Origin: a virus
UHGV virus genome: UHGV-1603728
Reading direction: 5' to 3' (one strand)
DNA: 18,018 nucleotides
Shown: piece after piece, positions 4,154 to 16,857 of the stretch
How positions within the stretch are numbered: the stretch's first letter is position 1
Layout of the letters: every line of letters begins with the position of its first letter
Translations under genes and position numbers: made by a program
The notes under the pieces: model-generated
Database searches by the model: none
What the model saw: only the letters and a program-made list of their open reading frames with translations
What the model was told of the DNA's origin: nothing

Positions 4154-4515
4154 TTCAACTCCTCCCGACGACGTTCCTGAAGCTCTAGCATTGCGGCTCG
4201 GAAATCCTGCCACCATTCCTCATCTGCAACGGGGGTGTTTCGCTCCAGCACCTTGTCCGCATCAGCGATCAGGTTTGCCAGACTATTGTCTGAAATCTTC
4301 GTTACCGGAGTCGTTGGTTGCTCAACCTGCCCGATAGGTTTTATCGTGCTCAAAAGGAGGCGACGGCGGGAAAGTGGTGCCCCACAACGACGGTCATCTT
4401 CCTTGCGATATGTTTCTTTCGGACCAACACACCAGGTTGTCGGCGTTTCACGCAACTTCACTCTTTTCTCACCATCATTGGTAATGATTATTCCGGTATG
4501 GGTTTTGATGCTCAT
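4150..4515 (-). CDS. Hypothetical protein (121 aa)
   Basis: ORF with SD GAGGGG upstream; its ATG overlaps the upstream stop (ATGA). Confidence 0.45.
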   Translation of the reverse strand: MSIKTHTGIIITNDGEKRVKLRETPTTWCVGPKETYRKEDDRRCGAPLSRRRLLLSTIKPIGQVEQPTTPVTKISDNSLANLIADADKVLERNTPVADEEWWQDFRAAMLELQERRREELK

Positions 4516-4793
4516 GCCACAGCCCCTCTCAACGGCTTAACTTTGGCTAATAAGGTGTTAAACAACATGGAGTTAGGATTCATGCCAAATGGCAATTCCG
4601 GTTTAGCGGAGTAGTACAGGCAACCATTTATTTTCCTGGTTGTTATCTGTCCTTCGGCAACCATGCTTCTCAGTCTGCAACGCATAGAGTTCTGCGACAC
4701 ACCAATGTGCTCCGCGATTACGTCCACTTTTGAACATGGGTGATCGGTCAGGAAATTAATCACATCTTGGGGGTTAATAATTTTGCGTTTCAT
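4512..4793 (-). CDS. Small winged-helix-like DNA-binding protein
   Basis: Start trimmed to MKRKIINPQ (ATG 4793, SD AAGGA upstream). The segment VDVIAEHIGVSQNSMRCRLRSMVAEGQI looks like a wHTH. An iteron cluster sits directly upstream. Confidence 0.5.
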   Translation of the reverse strand: MKRKIINPQDVINFLTDHPCSKVDVIAEHIGVSQNSMRCRLRSMVAEGQITTRKINGCLYYSAKPELPFGMNPNSMLFNTLLAKVKPLRGAVA

Positions 4794-4807
4794 TGTCGAG
4801 GCGTCCT

Positions 4808-4840
4808 TATACATTTATATAAATATATAATTCTATATAC
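4808..4840. promoter_or_regulatory. AT-rich iteron cluster S1 (TATAGATTT / TATATAA-type units) upstream of the wHTH gene
   Basis: tatacatttatataaatatataattctatatac matches the iteron family that flanks parA/parG. A 7-bp hairpin follows at 4841-4858. Confidence 0.4.
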
Positions 4841-4870: not shown

Positions 4871-5938
4871 TCAGGCTTTCAATAGCGATTCTTTCAGATA
4901 TCGGGCATCAGCCAGGGCGTTTGGAGTAATCTTGCGAACCCATGCATTACGGGTTGGACTCCACTTAAAGGCGCGTGATTTAAGCAGCGAACGAATGTTT
5001 GCCTCTGGTTTGCCAGGGAAATAAAACAGGATGCGGTTATCCTCTGGATCTATCTCCATAGAAAAGCCGTCGTATTCTTCGCGCTGTGCTCCTGTTACAG
5101 ACTTGACCGATTCAAGCTCCTTAATACGGCTCTGTAGTCGTTTGATTTCGGCGTTATTGTTGCTCAGTACGTATGAAGGGAATCCGATGCGCCCACAGAA
5201 ATCTCCGGCCAGTAACTCTTTGGCTTCGCTTTCTGTAAACCTGAGATCGATTAATGCAGAAAGCTGCTGTAATTGGTCTTTTTTGTATTTGCGAATAGCC
5301 TTATTTGCGGCCTTCATTTTGACGTGTGACTTCATGCAGCCTTGCAGCTTACGAAGCAACTTAAATAGCGCATCAGGATCATCAGACGAAATTCCATTAC
5401 GACCAACACCTGCGGCTTTGCTCTCGTAGTGTGATGCTTTACTTTCGCATTCAACAAACGCTTTTCTTAATAACGCATCAGCTTTAGACAAACGGCGGCG
5501 ATGGCCTTTCGCGCTATAATGGTCAACTAAAATCGGCTGGCCTAACGGGATCACATCCAACAGGTCATGCGCTCGCTTATGCGCTACCGCACCTTCTTTT
5601 CTGGCTTTTTCTGCACGAGCAATATATCGGGCAAGACGCGCGTTCTGGCGTTCCTGATAGGTGTTTACGTAATCATCTCCGCGCTGCTGCTGTTCAAGCC
5701 ATGCTTTGCGCAGATCTTCTGTTACGTCCACCAGCTCCGCAGGGATACAACCAGTTTGGGCTTCATAAGAGTAACCATCCTCATAGATACGCCCATCATC
5801 TTCAACAAAGAAAAAGGTTTCGTGCTCATCGCTTTTGACCATACGACCATTAACATGGCGTAATAGGTAGCCAGTATCAGTGCTTAACAGGCTGTTAGGG
5901 TTGTTGATCCAGTCAGAAATAATTACTTGTTTATTCAT
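4871..5938 (-). CDS. Hypothetical protein, 355 aa (possibly DUF3560-like)
   Basis: Long ORF with SD GGAG 7 nt upstream. It sits directly downstream of the 102-bp promoter/leader repeat and the iteron palindrome. Confidence 0.55.
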   Translation of the reverse strand: MNKQVIISDWINNPNSLLSTDTGYLLRHVNGRMVKSDEHETFFFVEDDGRIYEDGYSYEAQTGCIPAELVDVTEDLRKAWLEQQQRGDDYVNTYQERQNARLARYIARAEKARKEGAVAHKRAHDLLDVIPLGQPILVDHYSAKGHRRRLSKADALLRKAFVECESKASHYESKAAGVGRNGISSDDPDALFKLLRKLQGCMKSHVKMKAANKAIRKYKKDQLQQLSALIDLRFTESEAKELLAGDFCGRIGFPSYVLSNNNAEIKRLQSRIKELESVKSVTGAQREEYDGFSMEIDPEDNRILFYFPGKPEANIRSLLKSRAFKWSPTRNAWVRKITPNALADARYLKESLLKA

Positions 5939-5944
5939 CAGATT

Positions 5945-6046
5945 TCTCCGGTTTAACCAGGGCGGGTATCGCTCGGTTTCGGGTATAACCTTAGGAAATT
6001 TTTTCCCACCTGTAAAGCGCTTTTTATATAAATCTATAATTATATA
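5945..6046 (-). repeat. Copy A of a 101/102-bp promoter-leader repeat (about 97% identical to 16048-16148)
   Basis: Near-identical to copy B, with 2 substitutions and 1 indel. Contains a TTTACA -35-like box, a conserved roughly 50-nt leader, and GGAG before the ATG. Confidence 0.75.
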
Positions 6047-6056
6047 TTTATAGATT
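6021..6056. promoter_or_regulatory. Iteron palindrome S2 (AAATCTATAATTA-N-TATTTATAGATTT) upstream of the -35 box
   Basis: Inverted 10-bp arms AAATCTATAA / TTATAGATTT. Same units as the iterons around parA/parG. Confidence 0.5.
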
Positions 6057-8477: not shown

Positions 8478-8513
8478 ACCACGATATGTGGTATTAAAAC
8501 CACATATCGTGAG
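8478..8513. promoter_or_regulatory. Operators O1 (ACCACgatatGTGGT) and O2 (ACCACatatcGTGag), forming a 13-bp-arm inverted repeat
   Basis: 8479-8491 and 8500-8512 are reverse complements at 12 of 13 positions. They overlap the putative leftward promoter (-35 TTGAAA at 8521..8516, -10 TTTAAT at 8498..8493). Confidence 0.5.
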
Positions 8514-8580
8514 TTTTTCAATGGGCGAAACAAAAAATAACCTTCTATTTGTGGTCCACCTCTCGTCTTACCATGTGAAA

Positions 8581-8595
8581 ACCACTAAATGTGGT
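8581..8595. promoter_or_regulatory. Operator O3 (ACCACtaaatGTGGT) upstream of the CI-like gene
   Basis: Perfect half-site palindrome of the same family, about 40 bp upstream of the CI-like start. Confidence 0.5.
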
Positions 8596-8632
8596 AATGT
8601 ATAAATAACCCACCATTCACGATTGATGAGAC

Positions 8633-9289
8633 ATGAAAAGCAACGACGAGAACATCAAGAAAGAAATAGGTCTGCGCATTCAGACTCTACGGAAACAATC
8701 CGGCATGACTGCCGGAGATCTCCAGCAAGTCACTGGAATAGGCTTAAGCACCTTGCAGAACTATGAGGCCGGATTAAGACAACCATCTATACCTGCCATC
8801 AAGAAAATCGCGCACGCCCTGAAAGCATCAGCGCCTTATATCGCGTGCTTAACAGATAACCCGTTCCCACCCCAGAATACTAACGCTCCTGTTATTCCTG
8901 GGCTTGTAGCTATAAAAAATGACATAGCATCGCACGCCGGAGAAAAGCCAGTGCTGGCGATAGAACAGGAGATTCTACGAAGCAAGAACATCAACCCATC
9001 GTCTCTGTCAGTTCTCCAGAGCAACGATGAGTTAATGTCACCAACAATATCCCCAGGCTCCCAAGTCCTGATTAATACAGACGATACAGAGATTCATGAG
9101 GGGATCTATGCCCTTGAAGACAGAAATGGCCTGGTTGTTTTGAGGCACTGTAGAGTCATACCGGGTGACAATGCTGTTATGCTGTCAACCGAAAGGGATG
9201 CTGAAATGAACACTAAGCATCTGAATAACGAGGAATTTAAGCGTTATAAAGTTCTGGGCCGCGTAGTTAGTGTTGTCAACTGGTTATGA
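8633..9289 (+). CDS. CI-like repressor: N-terminal XRE HTH plus C-terminal S24 (LexA-like) peptidase-fold domain
   Basis: HTH segment LRKQSGMTAGDLQQVTGIGLSTLQNYEAG. The C-terminus (ELMSPT ... NGLVVLRHCRV ... GRVVSVVNWL) parallels the LexA/CI C-terminal domain. Confidence 0.7.
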   Translation: MKSNDENIKKEIGLRIQTLRKQSGMTAGDLQQVTGIGLSTLQNYEAGLRQPSIPAIKKIAHALKASAPYIACLTDNPFPPQNTNAPVIPGLVAIKNDIASHAGEKPVLAIEQEILRSKNINPSSLSVLQSNDELMSPTISPGSQVLINTDDTEIHEGIYALEDRNGLVVLRHCRVIPGDNAVMLSTERDAEMNTKHLNNEEFKRYKVLGRVVSVVNWL

Positions 9290-9331
9290 TACACAGCACG
9301 GCGAAAGCCGTGCATTTCTACGCTCAAAAAA

Positions 9332-9346
9332 ACCACGCTTTGTGGT
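9332..9346. promoter_or_regulatory. Operator O4 (ACCACgctttGTGGT) upstream of the 124-aa gene
   Basis: Same ACCAC-N5-GTGGT family; TTGACA follows immediately at 9348-9353. Confidence 0.45.
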
Positions 9347-9381
9347 TTTGACAACATGTGAAAGTATAAAAGAGGCTACGC

Positions 9382-9756
9382 ATGGAATTACATACAGCCA
9401 ATAAAAACGAAACTCTGATCACTGCTGGAATCGAAATCCAAGCGTTGAACATAGCGATTGAGTGTATGTTATGCCAAATCATTGATAATGAGAAAGATAT
9501 CGACTGGATAGAATCTATCCTTCATCTGGCATCAGAACAAAAAGTCTGCCTCAAAACGGCCTTACAATACGATGTGCCAGCGGTATCGAAGCTGTGCCAG
9601 CCATTGATGGCATATAACAGGGCTATTATTTCTGTATGCCTCATGATTCTCGATGAAAACACCCCTCTTAGCGACCGCTCAGAAGCTGCTCTAACCCTCT
9701 CACGTAAACAGCGACAGCTAGCAAATCAACTGATATCAACGATAGCTGACCTCTGA
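9382..9756 (+). CDS. Hypothetical protein (124 aa)
   Basis: ORF with SD AGAGG 6 nt upstream, followed by an 8-bp hairpin at 9759-9780. Confidence 0.45.
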   Translation: MELHTANKNETLITAGIEIQALNIAIECMLCQIIDNEKDIDWIESILHLASEQKVCLKTALQYDVPAVSKLCQPLMAYNRAIISVCLMILDENTPLSDRSEAALTLSRKQRQLANQLISTIADL

Positions 9757-9782
9757 CTGCAAGCGGGCTAACGCCCGCTTAT

Positions 9783-9882
9783 ATGATTATAGATTTATAT
9801 AATTATATAAAACGCTTTTCATCAGCCAAAAAGTTGGTTATGCTTACCTCGTTCTATAAATATAGATTTATAGAATTATATA
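9783..9882. promoter_or_regulatory. Iteron clusters S3 and S4 upstream of parA (centromere/operator-like)
   Basis: ttatagatttatataattatataa (9787-9810) and ctataaatatagatttatagaattatataa (9854-9882), made of TATAGATTT and TATATAA units in both orientations. Confidence 0.5.
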
Positions 9883-9906
9883 ACCAAACACATGGAGTCT
9901 CGACAA

Positions 9907-10560
9907 ATGACTATCTCTGTAGGTATTTTCAACGGAAAAGGCGGCGTAACCAAATCAACAATTGCCCGTGCTTTAGCAGTTGCTTATGCAAAGGCCGGCT
10001 GGAATGTATGCCTGATCGATATGGATGTGCTTAACGGAACGGTAACGCGTTGGGTACAACGCAGAATGGCCAACAATATCGAACCTGCAATCGCGGCGCA
10101 GCCGTGCGGCACACCATCACAAGTCCAGAAAATCATCGAATCAGAAGTATACGACCTGGTTATCGTCGATGGCGGTGCCTACGCATCTGAATCAGTACCG
10201 AAGCTCTCTGAATTTCTGGATATGGTTATTTTGCCAACCAGATTCTCTACCGATGACCTGGAAACCACCGTTAACACAGCTCATGGCATCGTTAAAAAGG
10301 GTGTGCCAATCAAGAAAATTTGCATGGTGTTCTCAGGCGCGGCTGAAAACGAAGCCGACTACATTGAAGCCCAAGAGTACCTGGCTAATACGCCATACTT
10401 TGTTGTCGATAAGTACATTCCCCACAAGCCAGCTCTGAGCAAAGCTCAGGATAAGGGCTTAAGCCTCATTGAGTGCTCATACGTTGCGCCACGCAAAAAG
10501 GCAGACGACGTTATTCAGGGGATTATCAACCAGCTTGAGGCTCTGACTACTGCCGCGTAA
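9907..10560 (+). CDS. ParA/ParF-family partition ATPase (small ParA with deviant Walker A)
   Basis: Deviant Walker A KGGVTKST near the N-terminus, about 218 aa, no N-terminal HTH. SD GGAG upstream of ATG 9907. Confidence 0.8.
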   Translation: MTISVGIFNGKGGVTKSTIARALAVAYAKAGWNVCLIDMDVLNGTVTRWVQRRMANNIEPAIAAQPCGTPSQVQKIIESEVYDLVIVDGGAYASESVPKLSEFLDMVILPTRFSTDDLETTVNTAHGIVKKGVPIKKICMVFSGAAENEADYIEAQEYLANTPYFVVDKYIPHKPALSKAQDKGLSLIECSYVAPRKKADDVIQGIINQLEALTTAA

Positions 10561-10591
10561 TATATAATTATAGTTTTATAGATTTATATAA
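10559..10591. promoter_or_regulatory. Iteron cluster S5 between parA and the ParG-like gene
   Basis: tatataattatagttttatagatttatataa, the same unit family as S2-S4. Confidence 0.45.
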
Positions 10592-10603
10592 GAGGGGATA
10601 CAC

Positions 10604-10852
10604 ATGGCCGCACCATCAAAACCACCAAAGAAGAACAGCAAAGGCGTACCGCCATCGATCGAACAACCGCAGGTTTTCGACCCGACTGAAACGCCAACCA
10701 GAACCAAATCAGGTGGGGCACAAATGGCGTTTAACGTCGACCCTGAATTTAAACGTGAGTACAAAACATTCGCCAGCTCAATGGATATGTCATTGAAAGA
10801 AGTGCTGACAAAATCTTTTGAGTTACTCAAGGCTCAATACAACCAGAAGTAA
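10604..10852 (+). CDS. ParG-like ribbon-helix-helix centromere-binding protein
   Basis: 82 aa, directly downstream of the ParA-like gene. The C-terminus AFNVDPEFKREYKTFASSMDMSLKEVLTKSFELLK follows the RHH pattern of ParG (VNFDEEKHTRFKAACARKGTSITDVVNQLV). SD AGAGGGG upstream. Confidence 0.6.
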   Translation: MAAPSKPPKKNSKGVPPSIEQPQVFDPTETPTRTKSGGAQMAFNVDPEFKREYKTFASSMDMSLKEVLTKSFELLKAQYNQK

Positions 10853-10914
10853 GAGAAGGTGACGGCCTCCAGCGCCAACTGTTGGCCGTCGCGACACAAC
10901 AAGGGGAATTTGTT

Positions 10915-11064
10915 ATGTCCGAACAACAATATACACGGTTACTGAAAACTCGTCTAACCGACCTCAAACGGCTGCAAGCTGGTCGCTTATTTGCCCTGCT
11001 ATCCACCAGGCCAGAATGGGTACGTGAAGCAGTTCTGAAAGGCTTAATGCGCTCCAGCGTTTAA
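10915..11064 (+). CDS. Hypothetical small protein (49 aa); doubtful
   Basis: Short ORF with SD AAGGGGA upstream of ATG 10915; ends just before the convergent terminator hairpin. Confidence 0.3.
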   Translation: MSEQQYTRLLKTRLTDLKRLQAGRLFALLSTRPEWVREAVLKGLMRSSV

Positions 11065-11074
11065 ATTCAGCCAT

Positions 11075-11098
11075 AAAAAAAGGCCCCCGAAGGGGCCT
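11075..11098 (-). terminator. Intrinsic terminator (7-bp GC stem, CGAA loop), effective mainly on the minus strand
   Basis: AGGCCCC-cgaa-GGGGCCU with a run of 7 T on the minus strand, directly downstream of the small hydrophobic ORF. Confidence 0.6.
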
Positions 11099-11103
11099 AA
11101 TCG

Positions 11104-11226
11104 CTACTTGCTGCTAATGTTTATCGTCACATTCAGAGCGTTATCAGTAATCTTCCAACCCTCCCCATGTGGCGTAAACAAAGCTCCAGTAACAACGATA
11201 AAAATACACATGTAGTATTTTTTCAT
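11104..11226 (-). CDS. Small hydrophobic peptide (40 aa), candidate type I toxin
   Basis: MKKYYMCIFIVVTGALFTPHGEGWKITDNALNVTINISSK has one N-terminal hydrophobic helix. It is followed by a terminator and preceded by a long 5' leader containing a 20-nt box complementary to a divergent RNA. Confidence 0.35.
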   Translation of the reverse strand: MKKYYMCIFIVVTGALFTPHGEGWKITDNALNVTINISSK

Positions 11227-11290
11227 TGTGTGGCCCTTACAGGCCGTTTCACGGCATCCCCACCGACGAAAATGTCGCGAGAGCAAGCAC

Positions 11291-11310
11291 GCTGTTTGTG
11301 CCTGCGTGGT
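11291..11310. repeat. 20-nt box copy 1 (GCTGTTTGTGCCTGCGTGGT), in the putative leader of the small-peptide mRNA
   Basis: Identical at 19 of 20 positions to 11541-11560. Confidence 0.6.
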
Positions 11311-11498
11311 ACGGCAAGTGGATAATCCTTTCCTGAAAGTCAGTGCCCGGGTGCGAATCGGCGGAAAGGCCCCAAGCCATATTACACGTCATACCCTTCA
11401 TAATGAAGGAATAAAAAACGCTTTTATTACATAAGATTACACGTAAATAAGTTAAAAACCTTCATTTTGCATGAGCTAATGAGCTAAATTTTTTTATA

Positions 11499-12350: not shown

Positions 12351-12513
12351 TTAGTCTGTTAAAATCCCTCTGTATTGACATGAATGCGCCATTGGTGGAC
12401 ACTTTCCGAGCCGTAGCAAAATCTACGGTCGGGATTAGCCTCCTGAATAACACGATGGCGCATACCGCGTTAGCGGTTTTTTTTATGCGTAGAGCACTGT
12501 TACGCCCAAATTA

Positions 12514-12592
12514 TGGTGGGTCGTACAGGGGCGGAGAAATCCGCGCCGGTTCGTCATTGTGTCCGGTAAGGCTAACCCTGTACGGCTCACCA
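12514..12592 (+). ncRNA. Structured RNA element resembling phage P1 c4 antisense RNA
   Basis: 17-bp closing stem (12514-12530 with 12576-12592) enclosing a GAAA-tetraloop hairpin (12531-12544) and a hairpin with a 13-nt loop (12546-12566). Loop sequences are complementary to flanking target boxes and to the start codon of the downstream small ORF. Confidence 0.4.
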
Positions 12593-12646
12593 CCATTTGA
12601 TTAGCCTCGAATGGCGGTGATAGTTCCATATACTGGAGATATCACA

Positions 12647-12838
12647 ATGACAAACCTACCCCATGACTATTACGTCAACCTCGTAAAGATCCTTCTCAAG
12701 AAAGCCTCATACGCCGATAAATTCCGCCTGGCTGAAATCATCGAGCGCGAAGCTATGCGCATCGCCAGCAACGATAACGCTGTTTCTGACGCAAAAATCT
12801 CCCTCGTAACCAAAGTAGTTATGGGAGGTGCAAAATGA
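12647..12838 (+). CDS. Small protein translationally coupled to the antirepressor (icd-like position)
   Basis: ATG 12647 with SD GGAG 8 nt upstream; its stop overlaps the antirepressor ATG (ATGA). An alternative ATG at 12611 has no SD. Confidence 0.45.
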   Translation: MTNLPHDYYVNLVKILLKKASYADKFRLAEIIEREAMRIASNDNAVSDAKISLVTKVVMGGAK

Positions 12839-14016
12839 AAACGCTTCCGACCGTTAACACCCTACAGCCTATCCTGCATAACCAAATCCCCGTTATCACT
12901 ACTGAACTACTGGCAAAGCTATACGGCACAGACGTTGATAACATCAAAAAAAATTACTCACGTAACGCAAACCGCTTTATTGAAGGAAAGCATTTTTTCA
13001 AAGTGGCTGGCGATGAGTTAAAAACTTTGCGAGTGACTTTAAGTCACTCACAAAATTTGCGACTGGTTTTAAACGAGTCACAAAATGAGGTGCAAATTTC
13101 CCCCAAAACTCGCTCTCTCATCCTCTGGACAGAACGCGGGGCTGCACGTCACGCCAAAATGCTTGAAACTAACCAAGCGTGGGATGTGTTCGAACGGCTG
13201 GAAGACTGCTACTTCAACCAGAACGCGCAAACGGCCGCGACCGTTACCGTCTCGCCAAACAATGCTCGTGAGGTTGTCGATACGCTCAACGCCAAACCGA
13301 TGTTTTACATTAAAGTGTGCAACAACGAGCCACTCACAACCTCAGCCGATGTTGCCCAGGCATTCAGCACCACAAACAATTCCATCGTTATGGCCATCGA
13401 TGCGCTACGCATTCCTCGCACGGCTGCGGCGCGTCACTTCTTTAAAGAGCAACGACCGCTGGAAGGAAGCGACCGCGAAATAACAATCTATCGCATGACA
13501 AAAGACGGATTTACCTTACTCATGGAGAGCATCGACGGTCCAAGCGTGAAAGATATCAAGCTGGCCTACATTGAAGCCTTTAACGCTATCAGCAGCGTGT
13601 TAAAAACACAGTACGAGCGTGATCTGGCTAAACGACTGTACCAGGAAAAAACGATTATCCGCGCGGCAACAGAGCATAATCGGCTATTAACGGAACCGAA
13701 CTACAGGAAGGAACTAATCAAGGAGTTTGACAAGGCAACAGGGAAAACCAAAGCGGCGCTAAATCTGCCAGCAATGACTCAGGAAAATGTGATATCAGCC
13801 TTACTTCTTGATCTGCTCAGAAACGCCAGAGCACTGATCAGCTTTGACGAAAACCTGAATCCTCAGCTCAAGCTACTACCACCGACAGGCAAAGTAGTCG
13901 ACCAGGCAGATCACAACAGCATACTCAGCGTACTGGATGCAAACCTACCAGCCAGGACACTACAGGAACTGATAAAGATATCGGCGGATAAACTGGCCGC
14001 AGGTGCAAAACCATAA
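12835..14016 (+). CDS. Phage antirepressor (ORF6N/KilA-type N-terminal region with Rha-like central domain)
   Basis: N-terminus PVITTELLAKLYGTDVDNIKKNYSRNANRFIEGKHFF is ORF6N-like; the centre PLTTSADVAQAFSTTNNSIVMAIDAL is Rha/Ant-like. 393 aa, SD GGAGG 6 nt upstream. Confidence 0.75.
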   Translation: MKTLPTVNTLQPILHNQIPVITTELLAKLYGTDVDNIKKNYSRNANRFIEGKHFFKVAGDELKTLRVTLSHSQNLRLVLNESQNEVQISPKTRSLILWTERGAARHAKMLETNQAWDVFERLEDCYFNQNAQTAATVTVSPNNAREVVDTLNAKPMFYIKVCNNEPLTTSADVAQAFSTTNNSIVMAIDALRIPRTAAARHFFKEQRPLEGSDREITIYRMTKDGFTLLMESIDGPSVKDIKLAYIEAFNAISSVLKTQYERDLAKRLYQEKTIIRAATEHNRLLTEPNYRKELIKEFDKATGKTKAALNLPAMTQENVISALLLDLLRNARALISFDENLNPQLKLLPPTGKVVDQADHNSILSVLDANLPARTLQELIKISADKLAAGAKP

Positions 14017-15659: not shown

Positions 15660-16040
15660 TTACTTAACGAGGAATAAAAATGGTTTATTGTTCGGCGGTG
15701 TAATCGGGGCTGGCTCGCTTTTGCTCATGCGATCAGTGTACCAGGCCAGCTCCTTGTCAAAGTAAGCCTGATTAAAATAGGCAATGAATGTAGTTTCAAA
15801 TCCATAACGACCGCTAATACGCAGCATCTGGTTGCCGTTCTCTGTTTCCAGATATACCTGGGCACGTTCCTGATTCTCCTTCAGCCAGGTTAAAGCCTCA
15901 TCGCACGAGGACACACGATACTCATCATCGTAGCCGTCATCGATGCGGCTTGAAGAAGAACGGCAAATCACGCCAACAGAACCAGCCAGGATAGTTTGAA
16001 TTTTAAGGAAAGCGTTTTTGCGGATTTTAATCATGCTCAT
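15660..16040 (-). CDS. Hypothetical protein (126 aa)
   Basis: ORF directly downstream of copy B of the promoter/leader repeat, with SD GGAG upstream. Confidence 0.5.
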   Translation of the reverse strand: MSMIKIRKNAFLKIQTILAGSVGVICRSSSSRIDDGYDDEYRVSSCDEALTWLKENQERAQVYLETENGNQMLRISGRYGFETTFIAYFNQAYFDKELAWYTDRMSKSEPAPITPPNNKPFLFLVK

Positions 16041-16047
16041 CGGGTTA

Positions 16048-16148
16048 TCTCCGGTTTAACCAGGGCGGGTATCGCTCGGTTTCGGGTATAACCATAGGAA
16101 ATTTTTTCCCACCTGTAAAGCACTTTTATATAAATCTATAATTATATA
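16048..16148 (-). repeat. Copy B of the 101/102-bp promoter-leader repeat, ending in a half iteron (S6)
   Basis: About 97% identical to 5945-6046. It carries only the left half of the S2 palindrome. Confidence 0.75.
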
Positions 16149-16161
16149 ATTCAATGAGAAC

Positions 16162-16202: not shown

Positions 16203-16502
16203 TCAGATGTTAAACGCTATTCGTTTTCCTGTGGGAAGCTCAACATCCAGGCTTAATTTGCCTCCCATAGCTTCAACGTAACGCTTTAATGTCGCCAGCT
16301 TTAAATCATTTCCGCGCTGCTCCAGCTTTGTTACTGCTGGCTGGCTTATACCCATCGCCTCAGCAACCTGTTTTTGTGATAACTGGAGTTCTTCACGCAT
16401 CATCTGCAAGCCGACCTCAAGAATCATCTCATCTGCCATTTCTTTAATTCGCGCCTGACTTTCAGGTGAACGGCTGGCAATCACCTCATCTAATGTTCTC
16501 AT
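16203..16502 (-). CDS. HigA-like HTH antitoxin (addiction-module antidote type)
   Basis: 99 aa with an XRE HTH (LSQKQVAEAMGISQPAVTKLEQ), directly downstream of and overlapping (TAATG) the RelE/HigB-like toxin gene. Confidence 0.75.
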   Translation of the reverse strand: MRTLDEVIASRSPESQARIKEMADEMILEVGLQMMREELQLSQKQVAEAMGISQPAVTKLEQRGNDLKLATLKRYVEAMGGKLSLDVELPTGKRIAFNI

Positions 16503-16849
16503 TACTTGCTCTCCAGTGTGTTCAGATGTGCTGCAAACTCATCCTCAGCTATACGCACCAGTTTTTCATAAAACCGTTTATCGTTACTTTTGTCTCCTGC
16601 ACAAAGAACGATGGCCCGGCGAATCGGATCGAACACATAAAAGGCTCTTATCGGACGGCCAGAAAACTGAACGCGAAGCTCTTTCATATTTTTGTACCGA
16701 GAACCTTTTACGGTATCGGCATATGGCCTGGGTAACTCAGGTCCGTAAACCTGTAGCTTTTTCAAATCAGCCAAAACCTTTTCCTGAAGAGCGTCTTCTT
16801 GCTCATTTAGCCAGTCATCAAATCGCTGGCTAAAAAGTACCGTCCACAT
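16502..16849 (-). CDS. RelE/ParE-superfamily HigB-like toxin (addiction-module killer type)
   Basis: About 115 aa, in the toxin-upstream HigBA arrangement. Start trimmed to ATG 16849 (MWTVLFSQRFDDW) with SD AGGA upstream. Confidence 0.7.
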   Translation of the reverse strand: MWTVLFSQRFDDWLNEQEDALQEKVLADLKKLQVYGPELPRPYADTVKGSRYKNMKELRVQFSGRPIRAFYVFDPIRRAIVLCAGDKSNDKRFYEKLVRIAEDEFAAHLNTLESK

Positions 16850-16857
16850 GCTCAATC

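What the first reader, a model, noticed from the sequence alone, without database searches (positions are those of the whole stretch)
9783..10852. ParA/ParG-type partition cassette with flanking iteron arrays inside a phage region
Seen in sequence: a 218-aa ParA with deviant Walker A (KGGVTKST) is followed by an 82-aa protein with an RHH-like C-terminus resembling ParG. Arrays of AT-rich 7-9 bp units (TATAGATTT / AAATCTATA and TATATAA) in direct and inverted orientation lie upstream of parA (9787-9810, 9854-9882, overlapping the probable -10 region) and between parA and parG (10559-10591). Established knowledge: small ParA (type Ib) systems such as ParF/ParG use an RHH protein that binds repeat arrays serving as both centromere and operator. 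Inference: the element is maintained, or can be maintained, as a low-copy plasmid (phage-plasmid lifestyle), or it captured a plasmid partition module.
Basis: partly seen in the sequence, partly recalled or inferred. Interest (0 to 1): 0.55.

Follow-up and report, generated by a model that had tools for sequence, protein, structure and literature searches.

The report
Phage-plasmid partition cassette with dispersed centromeres
This is an ordinary-in-kind but unannotated plasmid-segregation module (a ParF-like ATPase plus a small ribbon-helix-helix DNA-binding protein) that lets a 48-kb E. coli/Yersinia phage live as a plasmid; its 32-bp binding arrays also sit in front of several other phage genes.

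Summary
parA (9907-10560, 217 aa) is a ParF-like ATPase, and the 82-aa gene after it (10604-10852) encodes a ribbon-helix-helix (RHH) protein. The repeats are arrays of four 8-bp units (TTATAKAW, 32 bp) at 9779-9810, 9852-9883 and 10560-10591.

The element is a real phage-plasmid. It is 99% identical to Yersinia phages vB_YpM_39/41/44. In complete E. coli genomes 71 of 72 copies lie on plasmid records, including one in ATCC 25922.

Two points go beyond the finding:
- The same arrays occur at three more intergenic sites in the window (4807-4838, 6024-6055, 16126-16157). A related complete plasmid has eight in all, none in its structural genes.
- In 11 further loci with RHH relatives (25-79% identical), the nine that show the upstream gene all have a 213-218-aa ParA there. 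All 11 carry 8-bp-period arrays whose core changes with the predicted DNA-facing strand residues. Four such predictions were made in advance and all held.

Best reading: a type Ib partition system whose RHH protein also acts as operator-binding regulator, like TP228 ParG and pSM19035 omega. DNA binding and plasmid stabilisation are inferred, not shown. It is a new member of a known kind.

The parts
9761..9780 (+). Terminator-like hairpin (AAGCGGGC-TAAC-GCCCGCTT) that ends the cI/orf124 unit. Array A starts at its 3' arm.
   Evidence: Sequence. Equivalent hairpins precede the first array in L004, L006, L011 and L012.
9779..9810 (+). Array A: TTATATGA TTATAGAT TTATATAA TTATATAA. Proposed distal centromere/operator block.
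   Evidence: Conserved in L015 while the 41-bp spacer to array B has diverged.
9852..9883 (+). Array B: TTCTATAA ATATAGAT TTATAGAA TTATATAA, ending 11 nt before the GGAG (9895-9898) of parA. Proposed parA operator.
9907..10560 (+). parA: 217-aa ParF-like (type Ib) Walker-type partition ATPase.
10560..10591 (+). Array C: ATATATAA TTATAGTT TTATAGAT TTATATAA, between the parA stop and the RBS of the RHH gene. It contains a TATAAT hexamer, so it may be an internal autoregulated promoter.
   Evidence: Arrays in the same position occur in L008, L011 and L015.
10604..10852 (+). 82-aa centromere-binding protein candidate. Low-confidence (probably disordered) basic N-terminal tail with a P-x-K-K-x-x-K-G-x-P-P motif, then an RHH domain (strand 40-45, helices 47-59 and 64-80).
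10915..11064 (+). Conserved 49-aa third gene of the operon, function unknown.
   Evidence: 39-63% identical ORFs directly follow the RHH gene in L009, L011 and L012. No Pfam, NCBIfam or PADLOC hit.
4807..4838 (-). Dispersed array, directly upstream of the RBS of the 100-aa gene 4512-4814 and just after a terminator-like hairpin.
6024..6055 (-). Dispersed array heading an array-promoter-leader cassette (5939-6055) in front of the 355-aa DUF3560/primase-like gene 4871-5938.
16126..16157 (-). Dispersed array (fourth unit degenerate) heading a second copy of the cassette (16041-16157) in front of the 126-aa gene 15660-16040.

Best explanation
The cassette is a type Ib (ParF/ParG-like) active partition system of a circular, roughly 48-kb myovirus-type phage-plasmid.

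Proposed mechanism. Dimers of the 82-aa RHH protein bind one per 8-bp unit and coat the 32-bp arrays cooperatively. The arrays upstream of parA (A and B) and between the two genes (C) would serve both as centromere and as operators that autoregulate the operon. The conserved basic N-terminal tail of the RHH protein would stimulate the ATPase of nucleoid-bound ParA, moving plasmid copies apart before division. Five further arrays elsewhere in the genome would add centromere sites and/or bring other promoters under control of the same protein. Three of those arrays belong to a triplicated array-promoter-leader cassette. This logic resembles omega of pSM19035.

Shown here: protein family and fold, array structure and statistics, extrachromosomal state, conserved gene order, and covariation between the protein and the repeats. 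Inferred: DNA binding, ATPase stimulation, plasmid stabilisation and transcriptional repression.
For: ParA is specifically ParF-like.

The partner has an RHH fold.

Synteny. Of 11 further loci with RHH relatives (25-79% identical), the nine that show the upstream gene all have a 213-218-aa ParA there, 0-50 bp away. A tenth (L008) shows only an unidentified truncated ORF and the eleventh (L014) is cut. Contexts include phage-plasmid-like contigs and, apparently, a plasmid.

Arrays. All 11 loci have 8-bp-period arrays, usually two blocks upstream of parA.

Covariation with strand residues 42/44:
- A,N goes with TATAK (window, L015).
- N,N goes with CTTTA (L004, L011, L012).
- N,K goes with RCGA (L005, L007, L009, L013). 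Within this class, D40 goes with AGCGA and P40 with AACGA.
- T,N goes with TACAT (L006).
- K,A/G goes with GTAC (L008, L014).

Predictions for P0014, P0017, P0037 and P0022 were written down before their loci were read, and all four held.

Strand positions 41, 43 and 45 are conserved hydrophobic residues, while 42 and 44 vary, as expected of DNA-facing RHH strand residues.

In L015 the arrays are conserved while the inter-array spacer has diverged.

Precedents. TP228 OF/parH are 4-bp boxes with 4-bp AT spacers in direct and inverted orientation, one ParG dimer per box (PMC3130281). pSM19035 has six parS arrays overlapping the promoters of copS, delta and omega, and needs at least 4 contiguous repeats for full ParA activation (PMC9499535).

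The element is a plasmid in 71 of 72 E. coli occurrences and carries RepA.
Against: There are no binding, stability or expression data.

The window protein hits no Pfam family on its own.

The PDB profile hits are weak (E about 0.15) and the Foldseek E-values are above 0.3 because the domain is small.

The ParA score is below NCBIfam's equivalog cut-off (78.6 against 180 bits).

The covariation classes were assigned by reading the sequences, and the loci are not phylogenetically independent.

The units are AT-rich and contain -10-like hexamers, so part of their conservation could reflect promoter function.

No convincing + strand sigma-70 promoter was found upstream of parA.
Confidence: 0.78

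Rival explanations
1. The RHH protein is mainly a transcriptional repressor of a small regulon. The ParA-like ATPase has a non-segregation role, or the pair regulates copy number or lysogeny. The arrays would then be operators only, not centromeres.
For: Arrays sit at or just upstream of promoter-like sequences or ribosome-binding sites, at the parA operon and at three other transcription units in the window. Many RHH proteins are pure repressors (fold hits).
Against: The ATPase aligns end to end with the partition ATPase ParF and far less well with MinD, FleN or MipZ. In the characterised type Ib systems the operator and centromere roles coexist. A 48-kb plasmid with an IncFII-type RepA is expected to need active partition, which is established knowledge rather than a test made here.
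Confidence: 0.1
2. The arrays are AT-rich promoter, UP-element or nucleoid-protein (IHF, H-NS, Fis) sites. They are unrelated to the 82-aa protein, which binds elsewhere or not at all.
For: The units are nearly pure A/T and concatenate into TATAAT-like hexamers. All arrays are at starts of transcription units.
Against: Relatives have arrays of the same 8-bp period and position but with GC-containing cores (AGCGA, AACGA, GTAC). These are not generic promoter or H-NS motifs, and they change in step with the RHH strand residues. No array appears in 200 composition-matched simulations.
Confidence: 0.05
3. The centromere-binding partner of ParA is one of the three ParB/Srx N-domain proteins encoded elsewhere on the plasmid. 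The 82-aa protein would be only an accessory regulator.
For: Three ParB/Srx-domain genes exist on the related plasmid (L003 34999-38879).
Against: These genes lie about 30 kb away next to the terminase genes, a usual place for phage ParB-like nuclease or modification genes (the author's own knowledge, not tested). The RHH gene directly follows parA in all nine relatives where the upstream gene is visible. L007 and the short contigs show no ParB at all.
Confidence: 0.03
4. The arrays are replication iterons bound by RepA, or operators of the cI-like repressor.
For: They lie next to the cI gene and about 8 kb from repA.
Against: Arrays accompany the ParA-RHH pair in loci that show no cI or RepA nearby (L005, L007, L013). 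IncFII-type RepA replicons are not iteron-controlled, and cI-type HTH repressors bind palindromic operators of about 14-17 bp in the divergent promoter region; both points are established knowledge, not tested here. Three elements with CTTTA units have cI proteins that are only 39-63% identical to each other.
Confidence: 0.02

Closest known systems
TP228 ParF-ParG-parH/OF (type Ib partition, E. coli/Salmonella plasmid)
   Same: Small ParA without an N-terminal DNA-binding domain; the family profile aligns full length with ParF at E 1e-13. The partner is a roughly 80-aa protein with a flexible N-terminal tail and a C-terminal RHH domain (hhalign to ParG 79%). The binding sites are arrays with 8-bp periodicity, in direct and inverted orientation, in two blocks upstream of the operon that double as centromere and operator (PMC3130281).
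   Different: The window protein does not reach the Pfam ParG model. Blocks have 4 units (TP228 has 12 and 8), lie 41 bp apart, and have the core TATAK instead of ACTC. A third array lies between the two genes and five more are dispersed over the genome. The tail carries a conserved Lys-rich K-G-x-P-P motif rather than ParG's arginine-finger-like motif. The host replicon is a phage.
pSM19035 delta/omega with six parS sites (Firmicutes inc18 plasmids)
   Same: An RHH centromere-binding protein that is also described as regulating the partition and copy-control genes. Several separate arrays of short contiguous repeats overlap promoters, including one between the ATPase gene and the RHH gene. 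At least four contiguous repeats are the functional minimum (PMC9499535); here every array has four units.
   Different: The repeat is 7 bp (WATCACW), against 8 bp here. The delta ATPase is 298 aa and only its P-loop region matches (2oze, E 1.7e-4). No match to the Pfam Omega_Repress family was seen. The hosts are Gram-positive.
N15/PY54/phiKO2 SopAB with dispersed sopC-like centromeres (linear phage-plasmids)
   Same: A phage-plasmid whose centromere sites are scattered through the genome near phage regulatory and replication genes.
   Different: N15 uses a type Ia system (large SopA, HTH SopB, single inverted-repeat sites). This element is circular, has no protelomerase, and uses a type Ib RHH protein with tandem arrays.
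pB171 par2 (ParA/ParB with parC1 and parC2)
   Same: An enterobacterial type Ib system with a small ParA, a small partner protein, and repeat arrays on both sides of the genes. This is from the author's own knowledge and was not tested here.
   Different: The repeats are 6 bp, in larger numbers. No sequence comparison could be made with the tools used.

Membership tests
Type Ib ParA (ParF-like) partition ATPase | Deviant Walker A (x-K-G-G-x-x-K-[ST]) with the signature lysine, plus a Walker B hydrophobic-Asp stretch | tested here: met
   GKGGVTKST at residues 10-18 and YDLVIVDGG. K11, G12, G13, K16, S17, T18 and D88 are invariant in ten family members.
Type Ib ParA (ParF-like) partition ATPase | Small size (about 200-220 aa) with no N-terminal HTH/regulatory domain | tested here: met
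   217 aa. The family profile aligns positions 4-210 with residues 3-205 of the 206-aa ParF.
Type Ib ParA (ParF-like) partition ATPase | Sequence membership in a curated partition-ParA family | tested here: inconclusive
   NCBIfam NF041546 ParA_partition: E 4e-22 over the full length, but 78.6 bits against a cut-off of 180. phrog_164 ParA-like: E 9e-39. PDB profile: ParF at E 1e-13, next best family at 1e-8.
Type Ib ParA (ParF-like) partition ATPase | ATP-dependent non-specific DNA binding and partner-stimulated ATPase; stabilisation of a replicon | not testable with these tools
   Needs biochemistry and stability assays.
ParG (Pfam PF09274) / RHH centromere-binding proteins | Ribbon-helix-helix fold in the C-terminal half | tested here: met
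   52 of 93 relatives hit RHH_10, 27 Antitox_RHH, 9 HicB, 8 56B_RHH. The AF2 model has pLDDT above 90 for residues 41-80, and nearly all of the top 50 Foldseek hits listed are RHH domains (probability up to 0.97, TM-target 0.6-0.8).
ParG (Pfam PF09274) / RHH centromere-binding proteins | Match to the ParG family model itself | tested here: not met
   The window protein hits no Pfam family at E up to 1. Only 7 of 93 relatives hit ParG weakly (best E 2.7e-4). 1p94 scores E 0.17 with the family profile. hhalign gives 79% probability. It is therefore ParG-like in fold and role but is not filed as a ParG family member.
ParG (Pfam PF09274) / RHH centromere-binding proteins | Flexible N-terminal tail with a basic motif that activates the ATPase | tested here: inconclusive
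   Residues 1-40 have no predicted secondary structure and pLDDT of 64-72. The motif P7, K/R9, K13, G14, P16, P17 is conserved in 60-85% of 93 relatives. Its function was not tested.
ParG (Pfam PF09274) / RHH centromere-binding proteins | Cognate arrays of short boxes at about 8-bp spacing upstream of the operon, bound one dimer per box | tested here: inconclusive
   The arrangement is present and covaries with the strand residues in 12 loci. Binding itself is not testable here.
pSM19035 omega-type global regulator / multi-parS system | Several separate arrays of at least 4 contiguous repeats overlapping promoters of par and non-par genes | tested here: met
   Eight 4-unit arrays on the complete plasmid L003 and six in the window. 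All are intergenic and lie at the starts of transcription units.
pSM19035 omega-type global regulator / multi-parS system | 7-bp WATCACW heptads and homology to omega | tested here: not met
   The period is 8 bp and the core is TATAK. No Omega_Repress match appears among the families listed.
Phage-plasmid | Complete phage morphogenesis and lysis gene set together with plasmid replication and partition genes on one replicon | tested here: met
   L003 carries terminase, portal, capsid, tail sheath/tube, baseplate, tail fibres, holin and endolysin, plus RepA, ParA and a RelE-family toxin.
Phage-plasmid | Extrachromosomal in lysogens, and able to form infectious particles | tested here: met
   71 of 72 places in complete E. 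coli genomes are on plasmid records. 61 PLSDB plasmids match, all typed non-mobilizable. Genomes 99% identical over the 2.7 kb compared were deposited as Yersinia phages with host Y. pestis EV76.

The most novel reading that the evidence does not exclude
The RHH partition protein may be a genome-wide organiser of the phage-plasmid. Its eight 32-bp arrays, three of them inside a triplicated array-promoter-leader cassette, would make the whole non-structural half of the genome a multi-site centromere. The same arrays would tie expression of replication-, modification- and early-type phage genes to the state of the partition complex. Specificity would be set by a simple code of two or three strand residues (positions 40, 42 and 44). 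That code would define incompatibility groups among related phage-plasmids and could be reprogrammed.
Probability: 0.35. Interest if true: 0.6.

Novelty: new member of a known kind. Interest (0 to 1): 0.42.

Why it matters
This phage-plasmid group occurs in about 1.3% of complete E. coli genomes (71 of 5,426), including the reference strain ATCC 25922. It also occurs in Salmonella, Klebsiella and E. albertii, and as phages isolated on Y. pestis. Even so, the RHH gene is annotated only as 'hypothetical protein' (phrog_6024, unknown function).

Assigning the gene as the centromere-binding and regulator protein, and defining its 32-bp sites, explains how the element is kept as a plasmid. It also supplies markers for typing and for predicting incompatibility.

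The family further offers a compact, naturally diversified set of RHH-DNA specificities in which a few strand residues track the repeat core. That set could be used to study RHH recognition and to build orthogonal partition or repressor parts.

Nothing here overturns current models of type Ib partition.

Tried and rejected
- PDB sequence searches with the single 82-aa protein and with a shallow alignment of close homologues gave nothing meaningful.
- The first AF2 model, built from 11 near-identical sequences, had pLDDT 67, and its Foldseek hits were noise such as ribosomal proteins and filaments. It was discarded in favour of the model from the 93-sequence alignment.
- The word-index homology search found only relatives at least 79% identical. 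The exhaustive HMMER search was needed to reach distant ones.
- Literature searches by accession numbers and by phage name found no paper on this plasmid group or its partition system. The pSLy3 group considered from memory belongs to the SSU5 supergroup and is unrelated.
- A looser cluster statistic (at least 2 hits within 24 bp) did not separate signal from noise for AT-rich units. Only the in-phase count of at least 3 units, or clusters of at least 6 hits, is used.
- The shared leader downstream of three arrays is not significantly structured as RNA (z -0.96).
- PADLOC gave no defence-system assignment.
- The consensus promoter scan did not locate a convincing parA promoter.
- RepA and cI identities between loci were too low everywhere to exclude those proteins by that argument alone.
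Full report
**1. What is in the sequence**

The region holds two co-oriented genes.

- parA runs from ATG 9907 to 10560 (217 aa), preceded by GGAG at 9895-9898. The mechanical ORF starts five codons earlier, at 9892. The protein has the deviant Walker A GKGGVTKST.
- The 82-aa ORF 10604-10852 follows, preceded by GAGGGGA.
- A third ORF of 49 aa (10915-11064) comes next, and then a strong hairpin at 11081-11098.

The unit is 8 bp (TTATAKAW; TTATATAA is self-complementary), and each site is four contiguous units:

| Array | Coordinates | Units |
|---|---|---|
| A | 9779-9810 | TTATATGA TTATAGAT TTATATAA TTATATAA |
| B | 9852-9883 | TTCTATAA ATATAGAT TTATAGAA TTATATAA |
| C | 10560-10591 | ATATATAA TTATAGTT TTATAGAT TTATATAA |

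**2. Chance and extent of the arrays**

A weight matrix built from the 12 units finds six in-phase arrays of at least 3 units in the 18-kb window. These are A, B and C plus 4807-4838, 6024-6055 and 16126-16149, the last followed by a degenerate fourth unit to 16157. None appears in 200 first-order Markov simulations at either threshold. All six arrays are intergenic.

The complete related plasmid L003 (NZ_CP062206.1, 48,103 bp) has eight arrays, each of four units. All are intergenic, and none lies in the roughly 25-kb structural gene block.

Three of the non-par arrays head an almost identical cassette of about 125 bp. Each cassette consists of the array, a TTTACA-17-TAAGGT promoter-like site, a leader of about 45 nt and a GGAG, placed in front of three different leftward genes. 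The window holds two copies (5939-6055 and 16041-16157); the third is L003 40847-40964. Several arrays begin immediately after terminator-like hairpins.

**3. The replicon**

The 2.7 kb around the cassette (window 8500-11200) is 99% identical to Yersinia phages vB_YpM_39, 41 and 44. These are circular records of about 49 kb with host Y. pestis EV76.

The cassette is also at least 95% identical to 58 of 61 matching PLSDB plasmids, most of 47-52 kb, all typed non-mobilizable. Most are from E. coli, with a few from Salmonella and one from Klebsiella.

Among 5,426 complete E. coli genomes, 71 carry the cassette. There are 71 places on plasmids and one on a chromosome, and the carriers include ATCC 25922.

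L003 carries a full myovirus gene set with lysis genes, a Hin-type invertase, RepA, a RelE/HigB-type toxin pair and the par cassette. The phage-plasmid inference is therefore supported.

**4. The ATPase**

- Pfam: CbiA (E 1.5e-12), ParA and MipZ.
- PHROGs: phrog_164, 'ParA-like partition protein', E 9e-39.
- NCBIfam: best hit is ParA_partition, covering the full length at E 4e-22, but below the equivalog cut-off.
- PDB: a profile of ten family ParAs aligns end to end with 5u1g 'ParA' and 4dzz ParF at E about 1e-13. MinD, Soj, MipZ, ArsA and delta match only around the P-loop, at E 1e-8 or worse.

The ATPase is therefore a small, ParF-like type Ib ParA.

**5. The 82-aa protein**

On its own the protein hits no Pfam, NCBIfam or PDB sequence. 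It matches only phrog_6024, of unknown function.

The exhaustive HMMER search found 105 cluster representatives, mostly 70-90 aa. Of the 93 that were aligned:

- 52 hit Pfam RHH_10, 27 Antitox_RHH, 9 HicB, 8 56B_RHH and 7 ParG.
- The family profile's only three PDB hits are RHH proteins: 2kel, ParG 1p94 and the antitoxin 7e4j. They are aligned in register but score weakly, at E 0.15-1.2.
- hhalign to the ParG fragment gives 79% probability.

With the deep alignment, AF2 gives pLDDT above 90 for residues 41-80: an extended segment and then helices 47-59 and 64-80. The N-terminal 40 residues show no predicted secondary structure and have lower confidence. Foldseek against the PDB returns almost exclusively RHH domains, including PutA, CdbA, AmrZ, CopG, ParD, Arc and MatP. 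Probability reaches 0.97 and rmsd is 1-2.3 A over about 43 residues.

In the alignment, positions 41, 43 and 45 are conserved hydrophobic residues (L/M; F in 91 of 93; V in 83 of 93). Positions 42 and 44 vary, which is the pattern expected of an RHH recognition strand. The tail carries a conserved motif, P-x-[KR]-[KR]-x-x-K-G-x-P-P.

**6. Comparative test that the protein and the arrays belong together**

I fetched 11 loci that encode relatives 25-79% identical to each other.

- In the nine loci that show the upstream gene, the RHH gene lies 0-50 bp downstream of a 213-218-aa ParA. In L008 the upstream ORF is truncated and was not identified, and L014 is cut.
- The contexts range from phage-plasmid-like contigs (a cI-like gene, IncFII RepA, tail genes) to what looks like a plasmid with a rep-like gene.
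- All 11 loci have 8-bp-period arrays, typically two blocks 40-60 bp apart upstream of parA, often with further copies after or between the genes. L004, L009 and L013 also have dispersed copies carrying their own unit.

(arrays)

The unit core differs between loci and follows residues 42/44:

| Residues 42,44 | Unit core | Loci |
|---|---|---|
| A,N | TATAK | window, L015 |
| N,N | CTTTA | L004, L011, L012 |
| N,K | RCGA | L005, L007, L009, L013 |
| T,N | TACAT | L006 |
| K,A/G | GTAC | L008, L014 |

Within the N,K class, D40 goes with AGCGA (L005, L013) and P40 with AACGA (L007, L009). Proteins in one class are not markedly more similar overall than proteins in different classes.

After the first seven loci I wrote down predictions for P0014, P0017, P0037 and P0022. 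All four were confirmed when their loci were read.

In L015, whose RHH protein is 79% identical and has the same A,N residues, the arrays are conserved while the 41-bp spacer between A and B has diverged.

This is strong indirect evidence that the RHH protein reads the arrays. The caveats are that I assigned the classes by inspection and that the loci are not phylogenetically independent.

**7. Mechanism and comparison with known systems**

The anatomy matches TP228. There, ParG dimers bind one per ACTC box, the boxes are separated by 4-bp AT spacers (an 8-bp period) in direct and inverted orientation, and they form two blocks (parH and OF) upstream of parFG that act as centromere and operator. 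The flexible ParG tail activates ParF (PMC3130281).

The multi-site arrangement matches pSM19035. There, omega binds six parS arrays that overlap the promoters of copS, delta and omega, and at least four contiguous repeats are needed for full ParA activation (PMC9499535). Every array here has four units.

Dispersed centromeres in a phage-plasmid recall N15. That comparison rests on my own knowledge; the papers were not retrieved.

I therefore read the cassette as a type Ib partition and autoregulation module. Its RHH protein probably also controls, or uses as extra centromeres, five further sites.

It is not a Pfam ParG member and not an omega homologue. It works like them but belongs to a separate RHH family that has no functional annotation.

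**8. Rival explanations**

- Repressor only: disfavoured by the ParF-like ATPase.
- Generic AT-rich promoter or nucleoid-protein sites: disfavoured by the GC-containing cores in relatives, which covary with the protein.
- ParB/Srx proteins as the partner: disfavoured because those genes lie about 30 kb away while the parA-RHH gene order is conserved.
- RepA iterons or cI operators: disfavoured because arrays accompany ParA-RHH in loci without either gene nearby.
- Defence system: no association was found.

**9. Verdict**

The kind of system is known. The particular family, its 32-bp four-unit arrays, their dispersion and the residue-to-repeat correspondence appear not to have been described. 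No paper was found in the searchable library, although that library lacks most subscription journals.

I rate it a new member of a known kind, of moderate interest.

Noticed in passing
window 5939-6055 and 16041-16157 (minus strand); third copy at L003 40847-40964: A cassette of about 125 bp (32-bp array, TTTACA-17-TAAGGT promoter-like site, leader of about 45 nt, GGAG) is present three times, nearly identical, in front of three unrelated genes: DUF3560/primase-like, a 126-aa gene, and a small gene of about 89 aa outside the window. The leader is not significantly structured as RNA (z -0.96).
   Followed up: partly
window 10915-11064 (+): A 49-aa ORF directly after the RHH gene is conserved (39-63% identity) in three distant relatives (L009, L011, L012). 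It has no family match and may be a third component of the par operon.
   Followed up: partly
window 11076-11374 (-): A full-length Rfam match to ryfA RNA (135 bits, E 5e-35) lies immediately downstream of the par operon and convergent with it, ending at the hairpin 11081-11098. In Salmonella ryfA encodes a small type I toxin (author's own knowledge), so this may be a further maintenance element.
   Followed up: no
window 12410-12597 (+) and 12835-14016 (+): Rfam isrK (12410-12483) and C4 antisense RNA (12509-12597) precede a 393-aa ORF6N/Rha anti-repressor-like gene. This is the layout of a P1/P7 immI-type (c4-ant) immunity region, about 2 kb from the par cassette.
   Followed up: no
window 8633-9289 (+) and 9382-9756 (+): A cI-like repressor (HTH_3 plus an S24 peptidase domain) and a fast-evolving 124-aa ORF (phrog_7632) lie directly upstream of the par cassette and are separated from it by a terminator-like hairpin. 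The order cI, small ORF, parA, RHH recurs in L004, L006, L011, L012 and L015.
   Followed up: partly
window 16203-16855 (-): A toxin-antitoxin pair: a Gp49/HigB-like toxin (16502-16855) and an HTH antitoxin (16203-16502). It sits just upstream of the dispersed array at 16126 and is annotated HigB2/RelE in related records.
   Followed up: no
L003 34999-35589, 36883-38256, 38256-38879 (outside the window): Three ParB/Srx N-terminal-domain genes lie next to the terminase genes of the same plasmid. They are probably not the partition ParB, but their role is unknown.
   Followed up: no
E. coli genome search: One of 72 occurrences lies on a chromosome record, and one ATCC 25922 assembly holds a 94,204-bp plasmid record with two copies (likely a dimer or an assembly artefact). 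Neither was inspected.
   Followed up: no
alignment A2, positions 42 and 44: The window's strand residue pair A42/N44 is unique among the 93 cluster representatives; N,K is the commonest with 45 of 93. This phage-plasmid group therefore has an unusual, almost pure-AT specificity.
   Followed up: partly
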